From: Planctomycetota bacterium
GTDB lineage: Bacteria > Planctomycetota > UBA1135 > UBA2386
Assembly: GCA_965228735.1 (NCBI GenBank)
Contig: OZ245838.1
Location: 2,528,001-2,592,000 of the forward strand
Length of the DNA: 64,000 bases
Reading direction: 5' to 3'
The notes beneath the pieces were generated by a model, which saw only the letters and a program-made list of their open reading frames with translations, had not been told where the DNA came from and did no database searches. Positions 47,906 through 56,756 of the stretch are shown here, in pieces (the first letter of the stretch is position 1; the number at the start of each line of letters is the position of its first letter). The position numbers were made by a program, and so were the translations under genes.

Positions 47906-49942
47906 ATGACCGATCCGCTCGAGCAATACCGCGACAAGCGCGACTTCGACAAGACGCCGGAGCCGGCCCCGAAGCCGCTGCGGCCGGGCGTCGATCGGGT
48001 CTTCGTCGTGCACCGTCACGAGGCGCGCAACCTGCACTACGACCTCCGACTCGAGCGCGCTGGCGTGCTGTGTTCGTGGGCCGTGCCGCGCGGGTTCAGC
48101 TACGACCCGAGCGAGAAGCGACTCGCGGTGCGCACCGAGGACCATCCGATCGAGTACGAGCACTTCCACGGTCGCATCCCCAAGGGCGAGTACGGCGCGG
48201 GCACGATGACGATCTGGGACCGGGGTCACTACGAGCTCGTCAAGATCACGGACTGGGACGAGGCGATCGCGCGCGGCGAGGTGAAGGTGCGACTCTACGG
48301 GCGCCGGCTGCGCGGTGAGTGGCACCTGGTTCGCACGACGCAGAGCAAGAACAGCTGGCTCCTGTTCAAGTCGCGCGACCTGTTCTCGGGGCCCGCGCGC
48401 GACAGCGCCCTGGGCGTCGATCTGACGACGGCCGGACGGGCGGGCGCGACCGACGAGCTGCAGCCGATGCGGGCCGGCGCCGAACCTCGCCAGGTGTTCA
48501 CCGACCCCGCGTGGGTGTTCGAGATGGAGTTCGCCGGCCAGCGCGCGTTCGCGAGCAAGACCGATGACGCGGTCGGACTGCATGGCGTTCCCGACGTGCC
48601 GGCGCCGCTCCTCGACGCGCTCCGGCAGCTGCGCTGCGACCGCGCGGTGCTCGATGGCGTGCTCGTCGCTCTCGGCGACGACGGTCGCCCGGATCGCGAA
48701 GCACTGACGCAAGCGCTGCATGGCGGCAACGCCGACCGGATCGCCTACTACGCGTTCGACCTCGTCCACTGGGAGGAGTTCGACCTGCGGACATTGCCGC
48801 TGTTCGACCGCAAGGCCGCGCTGCGCACGCTCGTGCCCGACGATCCGCGACTGCTCTACGCCGATCACGTCGCGGGCAACGGCCCCGCCCTGCTGCAGGC
48901 GATCCGCGACGCCGGCCTGCCGGCGGCGATCGGCAAGCGCGGGGCGAGCCCGTACTCGGGCGGAGAGTCCGAGGACTGGGTGCGCATTCCAGCGGACGGC
49001 GCAGCCGCTGCGCCGAACGAACCGGAGTCATCGAAGGAGTCCCGCCCGCTCAACGTGCGCTTCCGGCCGACCAACCTCGCCAAGGTCTACTGGCCGGCCG
49101 AGGGCCACACCAAGGGCGACCTGCTCGCCTACTACCAATCGATCGCGGACGTGCTCCTGCCCCACCTGCGCGACCGACCCGTGCACCTCAATCGCTATCC
49201 CGACGGCATCGACGGCAAGTCGTTCTACCAGCGCGAGGCCAAAGAGGGCACGCCGGACTGGGTGCGCACCGTGCCCATTCCGCACGACGACGAGACGGTG
49301 CCGCATCACGTCATCGACGACGTCGAGACGCTGATCTACTGCGCCAACCTCGGCAGCATCGATCTGCACCCCTGGTTGTCGCGGTATCCGACCATCGACA
49401 CGCCCGACTACGCCGTCCTCGACATCGACCCGAAGGAGGCGCCGTTCACCCACGTCGTCCGCATCGCGAAGGCCGCGGGGCGCCTGCTGCGCGGCATCGG
49501 CCTGCGCCCGGTGCTCAAGACCTCGGGCAAGAACGGCATGCACGTCTTCGTGCCGCTGCTGCCGCAGTACACCTACGACCACGCGCGGATGTTCACCGAA
49601 GCCGTCGCCCGCGTCCTCGCACGCGAGCTCCCCGACATCGCGACGACCGAACGCGTGCCGAGCCAACGCGACGGCAAGGTCTACCTCGACTTCCTGCAGA
49701 ACCGGAGGTCACAGACGATCGTGCCGGTCTACTCCGTTCGCCCCGTCCGCGGCGCCACCGTGTCGACGCCGCTGATGTGGGACGAGCTCGAGAACGGCGA
49801 CCTGTCGCCGAAGAACTTCACCATCCACACCGTCCCCGAACGCGTGATGCAACACGGCGACCTCTTCCGCAACGCGCTCGAGGACCACCAGGACCTGATG
49901 GCGGCGATCGGTGCGTTGGAGGACGTGCTGAAGAACGGGTGA
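47906..49942 (+). CDS. ligD: LigD-type NHEJ protein: phosphoesterase, degenerate ligase domain, primase-polymerase
   Basis: YRDKRDFDKTPEP, HYDLRLE, TEDHP (PE); RYPDGI, LDIDP, KTSGKNGMH, DFLQN (POL); ligase motif I reads EMEFAGQR. Confidence 0.93.
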   Translation: MTDPLEQYRDKRDFDKTPEPAPKPLRPGVDRVFVVHRHEARNLHYDLRLERAGVLCSWAVPRGFSYDPSEKRLAVRTEDHPIEYEHFHGRIPKGEYGAGTMTIWDRGHYELVKITDWDEAIARGEVKVRLYGRRLRGEWHLVRTTQSKNSWLLFKSRDLFSGPARDSALGVDLTTAGRAGATDELQPMRAGAEPRQVFTDPAWVFEMEFAGQRAFASKTDDAVGLHGVPDVPAPLLDALRQLRCDRAVLDGVLVALGDDGRPDREALTQALHGGNADRIAYYAFDLVHWEEFDLRTLPLFDRKAALRTLVPDDPRLLYADHVAGNGPALLQAIRDAGLPAAIGKRGASPYSGGESEDWVRIPADGAAAAPNEPESSKESRPLNVRFRPTNLAKVYWPAEGHTKGDLLAYYQSIADVLLPHLRDRPVHLNRYPDGIDGKSFYQREAKEGTPDWVRTVPIPHDDETVPHHVIDDVETLIYCANLGSIDLHPWLSRYPTIDTPDYAVLDIDPKEAPFTHVVRIAKAAGRLLRGIGLRPVLKTSGKNGMHVFVPLLPQYTYDHARMFTEAVARVLARELPDIATTERVPSQRDGKVYLDFLQNRRSQTIVPVYSVRPVRGATVSTPLMWDELENGDLSPKNFTIHTVPERVMQHGDLFRNALEDHQDLMAAIGALEDVLKNG

Positions 49943-50025
49943 ACATACCGAACCCGGCATCTTTGTCTCACCCCAGCGCCTCCGGCGCTGGGGTGAGACA
50001 AAGATGCCGGGTTCCGTATGTTCAC
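49939..50025. repeat. 87-bp palindrome (42-bp arms, one mismatch, 3-nt loop)
   Basis: GTGAACATACCGAACCCGGCATCTTTGTCTCACCCCAGCGCC-TCC-reverse complement. Confidence 0.92.
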
Positions 50026-50028
50026 GGC

Positions 50029-51897
50029 ATGCGCTTCCTCTTGCTGCTGTTCGCTGCCACCCTCGCCGGCACCCTCAGCGCCCAACGCACGGATCACCTG
50101 GTCCTCGTCGAGGCCGAGTCGTTCCACGACACGGGCGGCTGGGTCGTGGACCAGCAGTTCATGGACTTCATGGGCTCGCCGATGCTGCTCGCGCACGGGC
50201 TCGGCATTCCGGTCGAGGACGCGGTCACCGCGGTCACGTTCGACCATCCCGGGCGCTATCGCGTCTACGTCCGCACCCGCGACTGGGTCGCGCCGTGGAA
50301 CGCGCCGGGCGCGCCCGGCCGCTTCAAGATCCGCGTCGACGGCGTCGAACTCAGCACGACGTTCGGCATCGAGGGCGCGGACTGGCACTGGCAGAGCGGC
50401 GGCAGCGTCACGGTCGGCGAACGCGCGACGGTCGCGCTGCACGATCTCACGGGCTTCGAAGGGCGGTGCGATGCGATCCTGTTCGTGCACGGCGACTCGC
50501 AGTTCACGCCGCCCGACGGCGGCGACGAGCTCGCCGAGCTGCGCGGCAAGCTGCTCGGTTGGGACCGGGCGCCGGAGGACGCCGGCCCGTTCGACCTCGC
50601 GGTCATCGGCGGCGGCATCGCGGGCACGGCCGCGGCGATCACGGCCGCGCGCCTCGGGCTCACCGTCGCGCTGATCCAGGACCGGCCCGTGCTCGGCGGC
50701 AACGGCAGCTCCGAGGTGCGCGTCTGGCCCGAGGGTCACACCAACCACGAGCCCTACCCGCACATCGGCGACGTCGTGCGCGAGCTCGTGCGCAAGAAGG
50801 GCCGCGGCGACGGCAACGCACGAAACGCGGACATCTACGAGGACCGCCGCAAACTCGACCTCGCGCGCGCCGAACCCAACCTCACGCTGCTGCTCGAGCA
50901 TCGTGCCAACGCGGTGACCGGCAGAGACCGCGAGCACATCGACGCGGTCATCGCACAGCACACGCGCAGCGGCCGACGAAAGCGCGTCGCGGCCCGCTGG
51001 TTCTGCGACTCGACGGGCGACGGCGTGATCGGCGCGCTCGCCGGGGCCGCGTTCGACATGACCGAGACCGGTCACATGGGCGTCAGCAACCTGTGGAACG
51101 TCGGCAACGTCGAGAAGAACGAGTATCAGCTGCGCTGCGAGTGCGAGGACCCCGACGACCCGCTGTCGCTCAACTTCGTCACGTCGAACGAGCCCGCGCC
51201 GTTCCCGCGCTGTCCGTGGGCCGTCGACCTGTCGGACAAACCGTTCCCCGGCCGCAAGGACGGCAACCTCGGCCAGCTCGGCGGCTGGTTCTGGGAGACC
51301 GGCTTCGACCGCCACCCGATCACCGATCTCGAACGCATGCGCGACCAGAACCTGCGCGCGATGTACGGCGCCTGGGACGCGCTCAAGAACGTCGACGGGC
51401 GCCACCCCAACCATCGGCTCAAGTGGGCCGCGTTCATCGCCGGCAAACGCGAGTCGCGTCGCCTGCTCGGTGACGTGTTGCTCACGGGCGAGGACTTCCA
51501 CGATCAGAAGGAATGGCCCGACGCCGCGTTCCCGTGCACGTGGCACATCGACCTGCACTTCCCGAAGGCGGCCTACGCGGAGGGCCACGCTGGCGACGAG
51601 TTCATCTCCGACTACACGCGCGGCAAGGGCTACAAGTACCAGGGGCCGTACTGGGCGCCCTACCGCGCGCTCTACAGCAAGAACATCGACAACCTGTTCA
51701 TGGCCGGCCGCGACATCAGCGTCACGCACGAGGCGCTCGGCGCGGTGCGCGTCATGCAGACGTGCGGGATGATGGGCGAGATCGTCGGCATGGCCGCGAG
51801 CCTCTGCAAGACGCACGACTGCAGTCCGCGCGCGGTCTACGCCCAGCACCTCGACGAACTGAAGGCGCTGATGCGGCGCGGCGCGGGCCGCCAGTAG
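50029..51897 (+). CDS. Secreted FAD-dependent oxidoreductase
   Basis: Signal peptide, VIGGGIAG, LGGNGSSE, DSTGDG, KRESRR, RVMQTCG. Confidence 0.9.
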   Translation: MRFLLLLFAATLAGTLSAQRTDHLVLVEAESFHDTGGWVVDQQFMDFMGSPMLLAHGLGIPVEDAVTAVTFDHPGRYRVYVRTRDWVAPWNAPGAPGRFKIRVDGVELSTTFGIEGADWHWQSGGSVTVGERATVALHDLTGFEGRCDAILFVHGDSQFTPPDGGDELAELRGKLLGWDRAPEDAGPFDLAVIGGGIAGTAAAITAARLGLTVALIQDRPVLGGNGSSEVRVWPEGHTNHEPYPHIGDVVRELVRKKGRGDGNARNADIYEDRRKLDLARAEPNLTLLLEHRANAVTGRDREHIDAVIAQHTRSGRRKRVAARWFCDSTGDGVIGALAGAAFDMTETGHMGVSNLWNVGNVEKNEYQLRCECEDPDDPLSLNFVTSNEPAPFPRCPWAVDLSDKPFPGRKDGNLGQLGGWFWETGFDRHPITDLERMRDQNLRAMYGAWDALKNVDGRHPNHRLKWAAFIAGKRESRRLLGDVLLTGEDFHDQKEWPDAAFPCTWHIDLHFPKAAYAEGHAGDEFISDYTRGKGYKYQGPYWAPYRALYSKNIDNLFMAGRDISVTHEALGAVRVMQTCGMMGEIVGMAASLCKTHDCSPRAVYAQHLDELKALMRRGAGRQ

Positions 51898-51908
51898 GCC
51901 CAGCTGAC

Positions 51909-51939
51909 GGCGGTACCGAACCCGCTTCGTTTCCGCCAC
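51909..51939 (+). repeat. REP-like hairpin, intact copy of the intron target
   Basis: GGCGGTACCGAACCCGCTTCGTTTCCGCCAC; the inverted copy is split by the intron into 53998-54012 and 51990-52005. Confidence 0.8.
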
Positions 51940-52005
51940 CGCCGATCCAGCGCAGGGCCTGGATGGACGCCAGGATGCCACCCACACGTGTGGCGGATTC
52001 GAAGC

Positions 52006-53997
52006 GCCGGGTGGCCCTGGGGGTCTCCCCCCAGGGCTCCCACAGATCCGGACGTGCGCGGCTAACGCATCCGGCTCGTCAGCGACAAGGGCTCGCTGCG
52101 TAGACCGACCGGGTCAGCCGGGGCGGAGGAAGCGGGTATGCACGCAGCAGTTGCTCGAAGCGGGCCCACGACATGTAGGCCGCCCGCGAGCGCCGGCTCA
52201 GCCACCGATGCCAGATGCGACGGGCCTCGTACCATACGCGACGTAACGCAGCAGAGTTGCCGGTCACGCCGAAGTAGAGGTAGTGCCCCCGTAGCTTCGA
52301 GCACAGGGTGGAGTACTGGACGCGGACCTTGTCGTGCCGATTGCGACGGCACCAATCCCGTAGCCCAGTCAGGGTACGGGTCACGACGTGTCGTGTGGTG
52401 CGCCGCTGCACGGTCCATCGGCCGCGCCGGGAGCGTGACCAGTGATGGGTGAAGCCCAGGAAGTCGAAAGTGCCGCTCCCCGCCGCGCCGTCTTCGGGCG
52501 GTTGGAAGCGGACTAACCGGGTCTTGTCCGGATGCAGTGTGAGGCCGAAGCGCCCGAGCCTTTGGGCCAGGATCGACGACATCGCACGTGCATCGGCTTC
52601 GACGGCAAACAGGATCACGAAGTCGTCCGCATAGCGGACCAACTCCGCGCGACCGGCAAGCCTCGGCTTGACTTCCTCGACAAACCAACGGTCCAGCACT
52701 GCGTGCAAATAGATGTTCGCCAGCAGCGGCGAAATCACGCCTCCTTGTGGGGTGCCTTTGCGAGAGCGATGCAGCGCACCGTCCTCCTGCACCCCCGCCT
52801 TCAGCCACTTGTCGATCAGTCGACGGAACACTCCGTCGCGCACCCGCTGGTCGAGGATCGCTCGCAGATGGGTCGGCTCCAGGTTGTCGAAGAAACCTTG
52901 GATGTCGACTTCCAACAGCCAGCCGCCACCCATCGACATCGCATGCTTCCAAAGCGATTCCAGTGCCGTGTGCGGCGAGCGACCGGGACGGAAGCCGTGC
53001 GAGCAGTCCAAGAAGTCCTGCTCATATACCGCCTCCATCACTTGCGTCACCGCCCGCTGCAAGACCTTGTCCTCCAGCGTCGGCACTCCGATTGGACGCG
53101 TGCCACCCTTCCCTTTCGGGATGTGCACGCGCCGGACCGGTGGTGCGCGATAGCGCCCTGACTTCGCGCGTTCGTGCAGGTCCGCGAGGTTGCCCTCGAG
53201 ATCCTGCTCGTAGTCGCGAGCCGTGACGCCGTCGACACCAGGAGCTTTGGACTTCTGCGTGCGGCGATACGCCTCCCGCAGAAGCGCGATGTCCATGTGG
53301 TGTGCCAGTGTGGTCAGGACCAGGTCTGGTCGCTGCCTCGCCAGCTCCGCTACCCGCCGGAGTTTCGTGGAGACCTGCTCGGAGCCCGTCGTCTCCGTGG
53401 TCGGTCCGTCCAGCGGTTCCTTGTCGCCGGTGACGCCCTTCCCTCCGCCGGGTCCCCGTGGGGCGGGTTCCCCGGACTCTTTGGTACTATGACGCACTCC
53501 GACTCCCTCGTTGGCGTCCCGCGTCGCTTCGTTTCCTTCGCTCGGCGGTACCGGCCGTGTGTCCGGATTCCTTGACGGCACCGACGCGGACACGACGTCG
53601 CGGCCCTGGAGAGTTGGTTTCCGGGCCCCAGCCGGAGTTGACGATCGGACCAATCGAGGGGATCCCAGGTTCCTGGGGAGTCCGATGGATGCGTGCGGTC
53701 GTTCTCAGGACCCCGGAGAGACTTCCGGGCCAAGCCGGTTGCGGCCCTTCCATGTTGCCTTCCGATGAACCCACCACGTCGGCTCTCTCGCTGTCGGTAC
53801 TTTCGGGGCTCAGTCGCGCCGCCCACATCCTCGCTGTCTACGCTTCGCAGCGGCGGTTACCCGGTCGCCACGCAAGACTCGCTTCCGGCTGGTGGCTAGC
53901 CTTCGCCGGGCGGGTTTCGTCACCCGCGGGACTCCAATACGGGGTTCTCATTCCTGTCAGGTCATGATTTCTCCCGTCCAGGCTTCGCCTGGCGCAA
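52006..53997 (-). mobile_element. Complete group II intron (IIB-like, probably bacterial class E), 1992 nt
   Basis: 5' TTGCGCCAGG; domain V GAGCCGGATGCG...CGCACGTCCGGATC; domain VI CCCTGGGGGAGACCCCCAGGGCCACCCGGC; EBS1 and EBS2 complementary to the 5' exon. Confidence 0.92.
52079..53497 (-). CDS. ltrA: Group II intron reverse transcriptase/maturase without endonuclease domain; start uncertain
   Basis: APGVDG, RPIGVPTLEDK, GFRPGRS, GTPQGGVISPLLANIYL, RYADD, FDFLGF, LRGHYLYF. Confidence 0.93.
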   Translation of the reverse strand: MRHSTKESGEPAPRGPGGGKGVTGDKEPLDGPTTETTGSEQVSTKLRRVAELARQRPDLVLTTLAHHMDIALLREAYRRTQKSKAPGVDGVTARDYEQDLEGNLADLHERAKSGRYRAPPVRRVHIPKGKGGTRPIGVPTLEDKVLQRAVTQVMEAVYEQDFLDCSHGFRPGRSPHTALESLWKHAMSMGGGWLLEVDIQGFFDNLEPTHLRAILDQRVRDGVFRRLIDKWLKAGVQEDGALHRSRKGTPQGGVISPLLANIYLHAVLDRWFVEEVKPRLAGRAELVRYADDFVILFAVEADARAMSSILAQRLGRFGLTLHPDKTRLVRFQPPEDGAAGSGTFDFLGFTHHWSRSRRGRWTVQRRTTRHVVTRTLTGLRDWCRRNRHDKVRVQYSTLCSKLRGHYLYFGVTGNSAALRRVWYEARRIWHRWLSRRSRAAYMSWARFEQLLRAYPLPPPRLTRSVYAASPCR

Positions 53998-54017
53998 GGG
54001 TTCGGTACCGCCACTCT

Positions 54018-54893
54018 CTACGACGTCGGCTGCTCGCCGTTGATCTGCAGGTAGCGGCGGACCTGATCGGCCCAGCGACTGTTCGGATCGAACGACAGGT
54101 AGGCCCGCCAGTGGCGGCGCGCCCTTTCGAGGTCCCCGGCGACGGCGAGCGCCTCGGCGAGGTTGTAGTGCGCGTCGGCGTAGTGCGGCACGAGCGCGAG
54201 CGCGCGCTCGAGCGCCGCGATCGCGCCTTCGCGATTGCTCAGCTCGCCGCGCACGACACCGAGGTTGTTCCACGCCTCGGCGTAGTCCGGGCTGATCTCG
54301 ACCGCGGCCTCGAAGCACGCGCAGGCTTCGCGCCGGCGCCGCAACGTGTAGTAGCAGTTGCCGAGATTGAAGTGCGCCTCGGGGTTGTCCGTCTCGACGG
54401 CGTGCTGATACGCGCGCACGGCGTCCTCGATGCGACCCGCGGCCTCGGCCTCGACGGCGATCGCAAACCACGCCTTCGGCGACCGCATCGTCGGCAGCTT
54501 GTCGCCGCCGTGACGCTCCACGAGCTGGTCGAAGTCGAACAGCATCTGACCGCCCGGTTCGACGAGCCGGCCCTCGGACGTCCGCACGGTGACGCGACGA
54601 CGACCGATGCTCGCGAGCAGACCGGTCAGCGCTTCGTCGGGATCCTCGACGACGGTGCGCGCGAGGCGCCACGCGTGCGCGATGCGCGGCGCGGTCCAAC
54701 CCGCGCGCCACAGCTTGGCCAACGTGCGCGCGCGGCCGAGCGCCGAGAACGCGAACTTGCCGACGCTGCCACGCTGCGGCTCGATGAACTCGCGGTCGAT
54801 CCAGCGCTTGACCACCGTGCCCGGCAACCCGCACAGTTCAGCGAGTTCTTTCGCCGTGAACGAGCGTTGGGTCGCGCTGAATTCGATCGTCAT
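54018..54893 (-). CDS. MerR-like HTH plus tetratricopeptide-repeat protein
   Basis: FTAKELAELCGLPGTVVKRWIDREFIEP; TPRs AHFNLG, AWNNLG, AHYNLA; ATGA overlap with the ligase stop. Confidence 0.85.
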   Translation of the reverse strand: MTIEFSATQRSFTAKELAELCGLPGTVVKRWIDREFIEPQRGSVGKFAFSALGRARTLAKLWRAGWTAPRIAHAWRLARTVVEDPDEALTGLLASIGRRRVTVRTSEGRLVEPGGQMLFDFDQLVERHGGDKLPTMRSPKAWFAIAVEAEAAGRIEDAVRAYQHAVETDNPEAHFNLGNCYYTLRRRREACACFEAAVEISPDYAEAWNNLGVVRGELSNREGAIAALERALALVPHYADAHYNLAEALAVAGDLERARRHWRAYLSFDPNSRWADQVRRYLQINGEQPTS

Positions 54894-55822
54894 ACGCCGT
54901 CGGGGTCGACCAGCCCTTGGAACACGGGTGCGCGCAGGGCGCCGCTCGCGGTCTGCTCGACGAAGCTGACGGTACAGAAGAGCCCAGGCGTGATCCAGCA
55001 ACCGTTGAGGTCGGTTTCGACGAGCGGTCGGTCGGTGCGGCGCGCGAACATGAGCTCGCGCAGCTGCTGTTTGCTGCTCTCCGTGAGTCCCGACCCGACC
55101 CTGCCGACGCACCGCAACGTGCCGTCTAGATCCGTCGCGACGATGAGCGACTTGAAGTCCTGTTCGCCGCGCTCGTCGTCGGGTTCGTAACCCATGACGA
55201 CACAATGCACGGAACGCACCGGCTTGATCTTCTGCCACGCATCGCCGCGATCACCCGGCCGATACGGTGCGTCGATGCGCTTGCTCACGATGCCCTCGAG
55301 CCGCTGCTCGACCGCGGCTTCGAACAGGTCGATGCCGTTCGTCGCAACTCCGTCCGACAGCACGAGTCGCGCGTTTCCGACGGACTCGACCAGGGTCGCG
55401 AGCCGGGCGCGCCGCTCGAGGAACGGCAACGGCATCGTGGCCTCGAAGTCGCGATAGAGCAGGTCGAAGACGACGTAGACGACCGGACTCATCTGCGATC
55501 GACGTAACGCGTCGCCCGGACTCGCGTTCTCGCGGGACAGGATCGCGCGGAAGTCGGGCCGGCCGGCGTCGTCGAGCACGACGAGCTCACCGTCGAGCAC
55601 GGTGCCGGCGGGCAGGTCGGCCAGGAACTCGAGCTCAGGATAACGCCCGCGCAGGTCGCGGCGGCGGCGACCGTGGATTCTATGTTGACTGTTCTCCACA
55701 TAGGTGACCGCGCGCACACCGTCCCACTTGATCTCGAAGAAGTGGTCCGCCGAGTCGAACGGCTTGCCGATGCGGGCCAGCATCGGCTCGACGTGCTCCG
55801 GCAGTCGCGGCGAATCGGTCAC
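54890..55822 (-). CDS. Stand-alone ATP-dependent DNA ligase (LigD ligase-domain type)
   Basis: PMLA, FEIKWDGVR, LDGELV, VFDLL, LEGIVSK, WQKIK, OB domain GRVGSG...LRAPVF. Confidence 0.92.
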   Translation of the reverse strand: MTDSPRLPEHVEPMLARIGKPFDSADHFFEIKWDGVRAVTYVENSQHRIHGRRRRDLRGRYPELEFLADLPAGTVLDGELVVLDDAGRPDFRAILSRENASPGDALRRSQMSPVVYVVFDLLYRDFEATMPLPFLERRARLATLVESVGNARLVLSDGVATNGIDLFEAAVEQRLEGIVSKRIDAPYRPGDRGDAWQKIKPVRSVHCVVMGYEPDDERGEQDFKSLIVATDLDGTLRCVGRVGSGLTESSKQQLRELMFARRTDRPLVETDLNGCWITPGLFCTVSFVEQTASGALRAPVFQGLVDPDGV

Positions 55823-55841
55823 GCGCGGGGCGCCCCGCCGG

Positions 55842-56756
55842 TCAGTTGCCCGACGCCTTGCGCGACTTCTTCTTCGCGCCGGCACTCGGCGCGAGCTTCT
55901 TCGGCGCGTCGGCCTCGCCTTCCGCCCCATCGTCGCCACCCGACTCGCCGTCGCCCGAAACGAGCTTCGTCTGCGCCTCTGCGACGCTCTTCTTCAGCGC
56001 GTCCATGAGGTTGAGGATCTTCGGTTCCTCGTGGTCCGGCGCCTGCACGAGCTCCTCGCCCTGCACCTTGGCCTCGATCACCTTGCGGAGCTTCGCGACG
56101 TATTGATCGGTGTACTTGCCGAAGTCGAACTCCTCGATCTTGCTCGCGCCGATCAGCGTGTTGGTCAACGCGATCTCCTCGGGCTTGAACTCGATCTCGT
56201 CGACCTCGTCCTCGTAGTCGGCGGGGTTCTTGACCTTCTTCTTGTAGTGCAGGCCGGTCATCACGATCAGCTTGCCCTTGGGTCGGATCATCACGAGCTG
56301 CTCGCGTCCCGACATCACGACCTGCGCGATCGCGCAGACCTTGTTCTCGACCATGCCGTGGTGCAGCAGCGCGTACGGCCGCTCACCCGCCACGCCGTCG
56401 GGCAACAGGTAGTGCGTCTTGCCCGCGTAGTAGAGCCCGTCGATCTCGTCCTGCGGGATGAAGCCGTCGATGCCGATCGCGCGGTCCGTCTTGGTGCGCA
56501 GCTTGTCGAGCTCCTCGGGGTCGACGACGACGTACTGGTCCTTGCTGTGCTCGTACCCGCTGACGATGTTCTCGCTCTTGAGCTCACCGTGCTCGGGGCA
56601 GACCTTCTGGTACTTCACCCGACTGTGGCAGTCCTTGTGCAGCTGGTTGAGCCGCACCTCCGACGAGCTGTCGTTCGCGGTGAACGCCTTGACCGGGACG
56701 GAGACGAGGCTGAGCTTGATGAAGCCCTTCCAGGAGGTGCGTGAGGGGACGGCCAT
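55842..56756 (-). CDS. ku: Ku protein
   Basis: SWKGFIKLSLVSVPVK, GYEH, YALL, NLMDALKKSV, basic C-terminal tail. Confidence 0.96.
   Translation of the reverse strand: MAVPSRTSWKGFIKLSLVSVPVKAFTANDSSSEVRLNQLHKDCHSRVKYQKVCPEHGELKSENIVSGYEHSKDQYVVVDPEELDKLRTKTDRAIGIDGFIPQDEIDGLYYAGKTHYLLPDGVAGERPYALLHHGMVENKVCAIAQVVMSGREQLVMIRPKGKLIVMTGLHYKKKVKNPADYEDEVDEIEFKPEEIALTNTLIGASKIEEFDFGKYTDQYVAKLRKVIEAKVQGEELVQAPDHEEPKILNLMDALKKSVAEAQTKLVSGDGESGGDDGAEGEADAPKKLAPSAGAKKKSRKASGN

What the first reader, a model, noticed from the sequence alone, without database searches (positions are those of the whole stretch)
51909..54012. Group II intron targeted to a REP-like hairpin, with an empty twin target beside it
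Seen: removing 52006-53997 rebuilds, on the minus strand, GGCGGTACCGAACCC|GCTTCGAATCCGCCAC, nearly identical to the inverted intact copy at 51909-51939 (GGCGGTACCGAACCCGCTTCGTTTCCGCCAC). The insertion is in the hairpin loop. Intron EBS1 GGGTTC (53767-72) pairs with IBS1 GAACCC and EBS2 GTACCG (53795-800) with IBS2 CGGTAC. Inference: an endonuclease-less intron using a dispersed intergenic repeat as a multi-copy safe harbour, comparable to terminator- or attC-targeting introns.
Basis: partly seen in the sequence, partly recalled or inferred. Interest (0 to 1): 0.75.

Follow-up and report, generated by a model that had tools for sequence, protein, structure and literature searches.

The report
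Intron homes into REPINs; repeats resist
A self-copying RNA intron sits in ten copies at one fixed point of a short repeated DNA hairpin element, nine times on the same replication strand, and over half of the repeat arms facing that way carry a single-letter change in the predicted docking site that likely makes them resistant, a probable genomic footprint of an arms race between two mobile elements.

Summary
Confirmed and extended. The 1,992-bp class E, endonuclease-less group II intron has 10 near-identical copies in this genome. All sit at one point in an arm of a 115-bp REPIN-like doublet (133 arms; a RAYT-like gene is present). The 'empty twin' is the doublet's second arm. Two other studies' contigs show this exact site empty. 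Targeting fits ordinary EBS1/EBS2/EBS3 pairing, not class C hairpin reading. Nine of 10 copies lie in the orientation expected for insertion into the lagging-strand template.

New: single substitutions at IBS2 positions -12/-11 occur in 37 of 67 arms in that orientation but 5 of 66 in the other (paired 26:0, p=3e-8). They comprise six different changes, never two in one arm, and never occur in an invaded arm. A sister repeat family and homologous repeats in two intron-free relatives show no such bias. This is most simply read as strand-specific target-site escape, so the harbour is probably not cost-free; selection is inferred, not shown.

This scan noted introns in REP-like repeats before on other DNA (48 unchecked notes, at least 30 genomes). 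The escape signature was not found in those notes or in the papers searched.

The parts
51908..51939 (+). Intact (empty) arm of the REPIN-like doublet. It can pair fully with the intron but lies in the lagging-sense, disfavoured orientation.
51940..51989 (.). Spacer of the doublet (50 bp here; 51 bp in 53 doublets; variable sequence, symmetric CAA...TTG motif)
51990..52005 (-). 3' half of the invaded arm (3' exon); IBS3 = G at 52005
52006..53997 (-). Group II intron, class E, 1,992 bp; one of 10 copies in the genome
52006..52077 (-). Domains V and VI (AGC triad, 5-nt domain V loop, bulged A in domain VI)
   Evidence: sequence and fold
52079..53398 (-). Intron-encoded RT/maturase, YADD, no endonuclease domain. 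The frame is open from 53653, but there is no ATG where most relatives start.
   Evidence: (TIGR04416 343.9 bits, cut-off 300)
53700..53918 (-). Rfam group-II-D1D4-6 match (domain I)
   Evidence: E=1.5e-34
53708..53708 (-). EBS3 (C, intron position 290), complementary to +1 G
   Evidence: covariation 30 of 35
53767..53772 (-). EBS1 GGGUUC (intron 226-231), in a terminal loop
53795..53800 (-). EBS2 GUACCG (intron 198-203)
   Evidence: (weaker covariation)
53998..54013 (-). 5' half of the invaded arm (5' exon): IBS1 53998-54003, IBS2 54005-54010; the variable positions -11 and -12 are 54008 and 54009
54018..55238 (-). Upstream TPR-repeat gene; its stop lies 4 bp before the invaded arm, so the intron would be in its 3' untranslated region
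49777..51897 (+). Convergent FAD-dependent oxidoreductase gene ending 10 bp before the empty arm (start codon not determined)

Best explanation
This is a class E group II intron with no endonuclease domain, present in ten copies at one fixed point of a REPIN-like repeat arm, which it likely finds by RNA-DNA base pairing on the single-stranded lagging-strand template, and arms in that orientation have likely been selected to carry one blocking change in the IBS2 site. Steps: (1) read-through from the upstream gene would transcribe the intron, which splices out with its RT/maturase (inferred); (2) EBS1, EBS2 and EBS3 are complementary to arm positions -6..-1, -13..-8 and +1 (complementarity shown; use inferred from occupancy and covariation); (3) the RNA would reverse-splice into the exposed lagging-strand template and use the nascent lagging strand as primer, as described for RmInt1 (orientation bias shown, priming inferred); (4) each doublet offers one arm per orientation, so only one is at high risk; (5) insertion probably costs the host or the repeat something, so single changes at -12 or -11, the IBS2 positions that differ between related REP families, spread at vulnerable arms (pattern shown, selection inferred).
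For: 10 of 10 copies at the same point in 10 different doublets. Intron depth about 10 times flank depth in runs X2 (211 vs 20) and X8 (60.5 vs 6.1). Empty allele of this locus in runs X15 and X16. All 10 occupied arms pair fully versus 74 of 123 empty arms (p=0.008); mismatches outside the IBS do not differ (p=0.17). Origin at 4.57 Mb by skew minimum and dnaA; 9 of 10 copies are leading-sense; among arms with GG at -12/-11, 9 of 30 versus 1 of 61 are occupied. -12/-11 variants: 37 of 67 versus 5 of 66 (p=1.8e-9), on both replichores (21 of 39 vs 3 of 35; 16 of 28 vs 2 of 31). Paired in 53 doublets: 26 versus 0, 4 both, 23 neither (p=3e-8). 17 arms at -12, 20 at -11, none at both (p=8e-4), all six substitutions seen. 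Independent of an incoming gene (20 of 40 and 17 of 27 vs 3 of 40 and 2 of 26) and of spacer similarity (p=0.62). Four variants recur in a separate assembly (L094, L096, L097, L100). Controls: sister family 2 (106 arms) has no position with p<0.05, and its 24 arms with pairable IBS1 and IBS3 but one IBS2 mismatch are uninvaded; G013, 1 variant in the 100 of 106 arms listed; G003, -11 invariant in 80 of 80 and -12 unbiased in the 53 of 80 arms oriented (p=0.40).
Against: Only 10 insertions, two of which share an identical spacer and may not be independent. 17 of 26 fully pairable leading-sense arms are still empty. One copy (2171142) is in the other orientation. Position -12 also varies in intron-free G003, with a weak trend in the same direction. 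The commonest variant (-12 C) equals the family-2 base and could come from conversion. EBS2 covariation is weak at -12 and -13. No decayed intron remnants were found, although 37 fixed changes imply a long association. No RNA or fitness data.
Confidence: 0.68

Rival explanations
1. Homing is as described, but the strand-biased variation comes from the repeat's own transposase: a RAYT acting on the lagging-strand template, with GTAC (-11..-8) as guide, makes doublets polar or selects against cleavage.
For: A single-copy RAYT-like gene is flanked by family-2 repeats and a family-1 half arm. Relatives of such enzymes act on lagging-strand templates and use a guide tetranucleotide (PMC6006769 and PMC8266576, passages). 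-11 would be the first guide base; GTAC as guide is my inference.
Against: Family 2, which flanks the RAYT gene, shows no asymmetry and has G at -11 in 106 of 106. RAYT-bearing G013 and G003 show none. -12 C is the normal base in family 2, so it is unlikely to block that enzyme. No covariation of -12/-11 with flanks was seen by eye.
Confidence: 0.14
2. The intron causes the pattern without selection: cycles of insertion, failed insertion or precise loss are mutagenic near IBS2, and the altered site is then closed to re-entry.
For: It predicts the same strand bias and one change per arm. Empty alleles of this locus exist, each with one unlocated difference in 53998-54060.
Confidence: 0.1
3. The asymmetry is neutral strand-specific mutation of guanines exposed on the lagging-strand template; insertion is harmless.
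For: The varying bases are G on the exposed strand; 54 of 59 doublets scored have a gene ending at one or both sides, so insertions are intergenic.
Against: The mirror GG in the same TGGCGG context varies in 1 of 66 exposed arms. Other G positions do not vary. Zero double mutants against about 5 expected. Non-IBS2 mismatches are balanced (77 vs 66, p=0.12).
Confidence: 0.05
4. The intron reads the DNA hairpin as structure, like class C introns at terminators and attC sites.
For: The insertion is in the loop of a predicted hairpin. Class E introns next to attC-like structures are reported (PMC7923331, passages and section 12).
Against: A 6-nt EBS1 and an EBS2 are present. The IBS lie inside the stem, so the hairpin would need to melt. 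Across 28 distinct related insertion sites, folding is not stronger than in distal flanks (6 vs 3 below z=-2, p=0.33). Ten copies of a relative in G066 sit in sites without this repeat form. A contribution of structure is not excluded, since -12/-11 changes also weaken the stem.
Confidence: 0.03

Closest known systems
Bacterial class E (IIE) group II introns, e.g. Cl.be.I2 (PMC3753933) and the class E entries on NZ_CP019949 and NC_021909 (PMC8919778, supplementary Table 3)
   Same: IEP 50-52% identical and in one clade; no endonuclease domain; EBS1, EBS2, EBS3; 5-nt domain V loop; lagging-strand bias reported for class E (section 10).
   Different: The target is a host REPIN-like family with 133 arms. 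The occupancy data suggest that EBS2-IBS2, dispensable for IIE splicing in vitro and only conjectured to matter for homing (passages), does matter for homing.
RmInt1 of Sinorhizobium meliloti (class D), a multi-copy endonuclease-less intron
   Same: Strong EBS2/IBS2 pairing requirement and lagging-template preference (36.6% vs 0.53% invasion at one site; PMC4075523, passages and section 11).
   Different: Different class; its natural target is in an insertion sequence (ISRm2011-2), not a symmetric doublet. No strand-specific target escape in the parts read.
Class C (IIC) introns at terminators and attC sites
   Same: Intergenic, hairpin-forming, multi-copy targets downstream of genes; lagging-template bias.
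   Different: IIC lacks EBS2 and reads an upstream stem-loop; here the insertion is inside the palindrome and tracks IBS2 sequence.
REP-targeting insertion sequences (ISPpu9, ISPpu10, ISPa11, ISPsy8; PMC1525189, table passage)
   Same: A mobile element using REP repeats as its landing site. That table also lists 2 of 9 Pseudomonas putida group II introns as REP-associated.
   Different: DNA transposases, not an RNA-guided retroelement; here the association is 10 of 10 at one nucleotide.
REPIN-RAYT systems (PMC3116915; PMC6006769)
   Same: Inverted doublets of fixed length with a variable spacer, extragenic, lineage-specific, with a single-copy Y1 HUH gene flanked by the repeats.
   Different: No GTAG/GGAG tetranucleotide; the transposase scores below the NCBIfam RAYT cut-off (49 vs 80 bits) and has a C-terminal helix-turn-helix; this family is parasitised by an intron.

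Membership tests
Group II intron | Ribozyme domains I, V, VI and typical boundaries | tested here: met
   Rfam RF02005 123.5 bits; domain V/VI fold; boundaries fixed by 10 copies and empty arms
Group II intron | RT/maturase IEP with YADD | tested here: met
   TIGR04416 above cut-off; YADD present
Group II intron | Splicing in vivo or in vitro | not testable with these tools
   No RNA holder listed
Bacterial class E | IEP groups with class E references | tested here: met
   Quick IQ-TREE run, SH-aLRT 96, clade holds two class E-labelled IEPs and excludes one D, one F and one G(g1) reference, all three on long branches; careful search not finished
Bacterial class E | No endonuclease domain | tested here: met
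   Only RVT_1 in Pfam; ORF stops at 52079, adjacent to domain V
Bacterial class E | EBS1, EBS2, EBS3 and 5-nt domain V loop | tested here: met
   loop feature from PMC3753933 passage
Class C (IIC) terminator/attC introns | Short EBS1, no EBS2, insertion after a stem-loop | tested here: not met
   6-nt EBS1 and EBS2 present; insertion inside the palindrome
REPIN | Inverted REP doublets at fixed spacing with variable spacer | tested here: met
   60 pairs, 52 at 115 bp by greedy pairing; 13 unpaired arms
REPIN | Extragenic and lineage-specific | tested here: met
   54 of 59 doublets adjoin a gene end; arm pattern in 0 of 60 relatives searched
REPIN | Cognate RAYT gene flanked by the repeat | tested here: inconclusive
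   Single RAYT-like gene at G000 6715991-6717019 (Y1_Tnp 26.8 bits over cut-off 23; NF047646 49 bits under cut-off 80), flanked by family-2 repeats and one family-1 half arm; orthologues in G013 and G003 are flanked by the same core; action on family 1 not shown
REPIN | GTAG/GGAG guide tetranucleotide 5' of the hairpin | tested here: not met
   Arms carry GTAC before the inner hairpin; filed as REPIN-like
REPIN | Mobility of the doublet | not testable with these tools
   One pair of identical spacers at two loci is the only hint

The most novel reading that the evidence does not exclude
A domesticated repeat family and a retroelement are in an intragenomic arms race that can be read from one genome: the intron is programmed against the conserved core of a RAYT-associated REPIN family, and the repeats have evolved orientation-specific, one-base immunity in IBS2, with the sister repeat family fully immune through the same position.
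Probability: 0.6. Interest if true: 0.85.

Novelty: new variant of a known kind. Interest (0 to 1): 0.72.

Why it matters
Each doublet is a natural paired experiment: two near-identical targets 83 bp apart that differ in exposure at the replication fork. If the escape reading holds, it shows that intergenic 'safe harbour' insertions are selected against, gives in vivo support for the open conjecture that EBS2-IBS2 serves homing in class E introns, and suggests that intact REPINs are worth protecting to the host or to themselves. The test needs only one closed genome, so it can be applied to other REP-targeting introns and insertion sequences to detect present or past parasites.

Tried and rejected
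The whole-genome Pfam search for PF01797 found no RAYT; a profile from family homologues did, so the first result was a false negative. A general class E preference for hairpins was not supported. REP targeting in relatives is patchy: G063 introns lie in a tandem palindromic repeat (3 of 4 loci; 21 strand matches vs 0 control); the L023 palindrome is single-copy; the L019 flank occurs 4 times; 10 copies in G066 are not in such repeats. No close intron relative exists in 60 related genomes (best 58-63% identity) or among the 120 proteins listed (best 64%). One search showed no joint skipping the intron in four runs, which short repeats make uninformative. No RNA holder listed. No other element splits family-1 arms; five lone 5' halves run into family-2 sequence. 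Spacers show no replication polarity beyond GC skew by eye and little hairpin signal (2 of 53 below z=-2). The PMC4028801 supplement (part 1 of 3) and PMC4853749 passages were not useful. The PDB sequence search gave no relative of the RAYT-like protein. The IS elements inside two intron copies were not assigned to families.

Full report
Observation. A 1,992-bp element at 52006-53997 on the minus strand matches Rfam group-II-D1D4-6 and encodes an RT/maturase (TIGR04416 above cut-off; only RVT_1 in Pfam). Removing it rebuilds a 32-bp imperfect palindrome, which folds as a hairpin with the insertion point in the loop. The genome is one contig of 7.19 Mb, 69% G+C; an order-level relative is titled Planctomycetota.

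Intron copies. BLAST finds 10 full copies: eight uninterrupted at 99.95-100% identity and two broken by multi-copy IS-like insertions. All 10 lie at the same nucleotide of the same repeat. Intron depth is about ten times flank depth in runs X2 and X8. In runs X15 and X16, from other studies, contigs pass from 53998 directly into the 3' exon and the intron's 5' end has no cover; X10 is probably empty here too. Insertion at this locus is therefore polymorphic and recent. A quick tree puts the protein in a clade (SH-aLRT 96) with two IEPs labelled class E in supplementary Table 3 of PMC8919778, apart from single D, F and G(g1) references on long branches.

The target. With the introns removed, the genome has 133 arms at up to 7 mismatches, against 0 in a Markov control. 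120 of them form 60 convergent pairs, 52 at exactly 115 bp by greedy pairing. The spacer is constant in length and variable in sequence. This matches the description of REPINs (PMC3116915, passages). 54 of 59 doublets scored adjoin a gene end and 29 lie between two gene ends. The arm pattern was not found in 60 related genomes. A second family of 106 arms shares the core. A single RAYT-like HUH gene, missed by the first Pfam search, lies at G000 6715991-6717019, flanked by family-2 repeats and a family-1 half arm. Its orthologues in G013 and G003 are flanked by the same core. The canonical GTAG guide is absent, so I file the element as REPIN-like.

Recognition. Covariation over 35 distinct related introns places EBS1 at 226-231 and EBS3 at 290, and supports EBS2 more weakly. 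All 10 occupied arms pair fully, two through a change at the unpaired -7 position or a wobble at -1. Only 74 of 123 empty arms do (p=0.008). Mismatches outside the binding sites do not separate occupied from empty arms (p=0.17). In family 2, 24 arms have pairable IBS1 and IBS3 with one IBS2 mismatch, 15 of them in the favoured orientation, and none is invaded. PMC3753933 (passages) found EBS2-IBS2 dispensable for class E splicing in vitro and suggested a role in homing; these counts fit that suggestion.

Strand. The skew minimum (4,570,541) coincides with dnaA. In 9 of 10 copies the intron's sense strand has the leading-strand sequence, which is the parental strand exposed as lagging-strand template. 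Among fully pairable arms, 9 of 26 in that orientation are filled against 1 of 58 in the other (p=7e-5). RmInt1 shows the same preference experimentally (PMC4075523, section 11). The empty twin in the window is in the disfavoured orientation.

The unexpected result. Substitutions at -12 or -11, inside IBS2, occur in 37 of 67 arms in the favoured orientation and 5 of 66 in the other (p=1.8e-9). The bias flips strand between replichores. Within 53 exact-length doublets, 26 have a variant only in the vulnerable arm, 0 only in the other, 4 in both and 23 in neither (p=3e-8). All six possible substitutions occur, and no arm has both positions changed (17, 20 and 0; p=8e-4). No other position of the 32 shows a bias (next lowest p=0.055). 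Variant type does not follow spacer similarity (p=0.62), which favours origin in place. The bias holds with or without an incoming gene. Four variants recur in a separate assembly. Among vulnerable arms, all 9 invaded ones are unchanged at these positions (p=3e-4).

Controls. Family 2 shows no strand bias at any position. In G013, which has no match to this IEP at E<=1e-60, the homologous positions vary in 1 of the 100 arms listed out of 106 (read by eye). In G003, also without a match, -11 is invariant in 80 of 80. Position -12 is polymorphic there, but without significant bias in the 53 arms that I could orient (20 of 28 vs 15 of 25, p=0.40). So -12 and -11 differ between REP families while the following TAC is kept, which may explain why these two IBS2 positions are the ones that change (inference).

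Interpretation and doubts. Selection for target-site escape explains the position, the strand, the diversity and the one-per-arm rule. It is inferred. Against it: 17 perfect vulnerable arms remain empty, no decayed introns record a long history, two insertions may share an origin, and the variants also weaken the outer stem. A RAYT-based polarity and intron-linked mutagenesis remain open. REP targeting is not class-wide: one relative (G063) uses a tandem palindromic repeat, others do not.

What is known. PMC4424553 (passages) lists three specificities for bacterial introns: homing sites, terminators and attC. PMC1525189 (table passage) documents REP-targeting IS elements and 2 of 9 P. putida introns near REPs. 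PMC7923331 (passages, section 12) reports class E introns beside attC-like structures. Ten literature searches gave no paper, by listing or by the passages read, on systematic REP homing by a group II intron or on strand-specific escape. The library lacks most subscription papers, and I did not read most supplements, so absence from print is not shown. This scan's own unchecked notes report introns in REP-like repeats 48 times in at least 30 genomes; three word searches for the escape or strand pattern returned nothing.

Verdict. The feature is real. Mechanistically it is ordinary class E homing aimed at an unusual multi-copy target, which makes it a new variant of a known kind. The strand-specific escape signature is the part a specialist would find surprising, and it is directly testable. 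Interest 0.72.

Noticed in passing
G000:C1 1603913-1606020 and 6838624-6840731: Two intron-filled doublets share an identical 51-bp spacer (next best pair 36 of 51), with identity ending at the outer edge of the second arm; both are supported by separate contigs L098 and L099. Likely gene conversion running from intron homology through the spacer, or movement of a filled doublet.
   Followed up: partly
window 53398-53497, minus strand: The IEP has ACC-ACG where most relatives have their ATG, and no ATG nearby; in-frame CTG (53413) or GTG (53497) could serve. An active intron with a weak start may limit its own spread.
   Followed up: partly
G000:C1 339710-344444 and 6550593-6553893: Two intron copies carry multi-copy IS-like insertions (about 1.3 and 1.4 kb); the same 1.3-kb element hit both copies. 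Families not assigned.
   Followed up: no
G000:C1 6715991-6717019 (L181): Divergent single-copy RAYT-like protein with a C-terminal sigma-4-like helix-turn-helix; orthologues in 10 of 40 relatives, several flanked by a shared repeat core without GTAG.
   Followed up: partly
window 53998-54060 in runs X10, X15, X16: Each contig without the intron has one difference from this genome that the tool did not locate; it probably lies near the contig end, in or beside the arm.
   Followed up: no
L010 about 40-78 and after 2091: A class E relative appears inserted in an attC-like site (motif recognised from memory, not tested).
   Followed up: no
L144 (G063:C4): A 748-bp intron copy lacking most of the ORF directly follows the 3' end of another copy within a tandem palindromic repeat.
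   Followed up: no
G000:C1 7172428-7173228 and 4720047-4720886: A partial RT (43% identical) without a matching domain V, and a distant RT (27%).
   Followed up: no
window 47906-49942, 54890-55939, 55842-56756: Non-homologous end-joining genes flank the locus: LigD with phosphoesterase and polymerase domains only by Pfam, a separate ATP-dependent ligase, and Ku.
   Followed up: no
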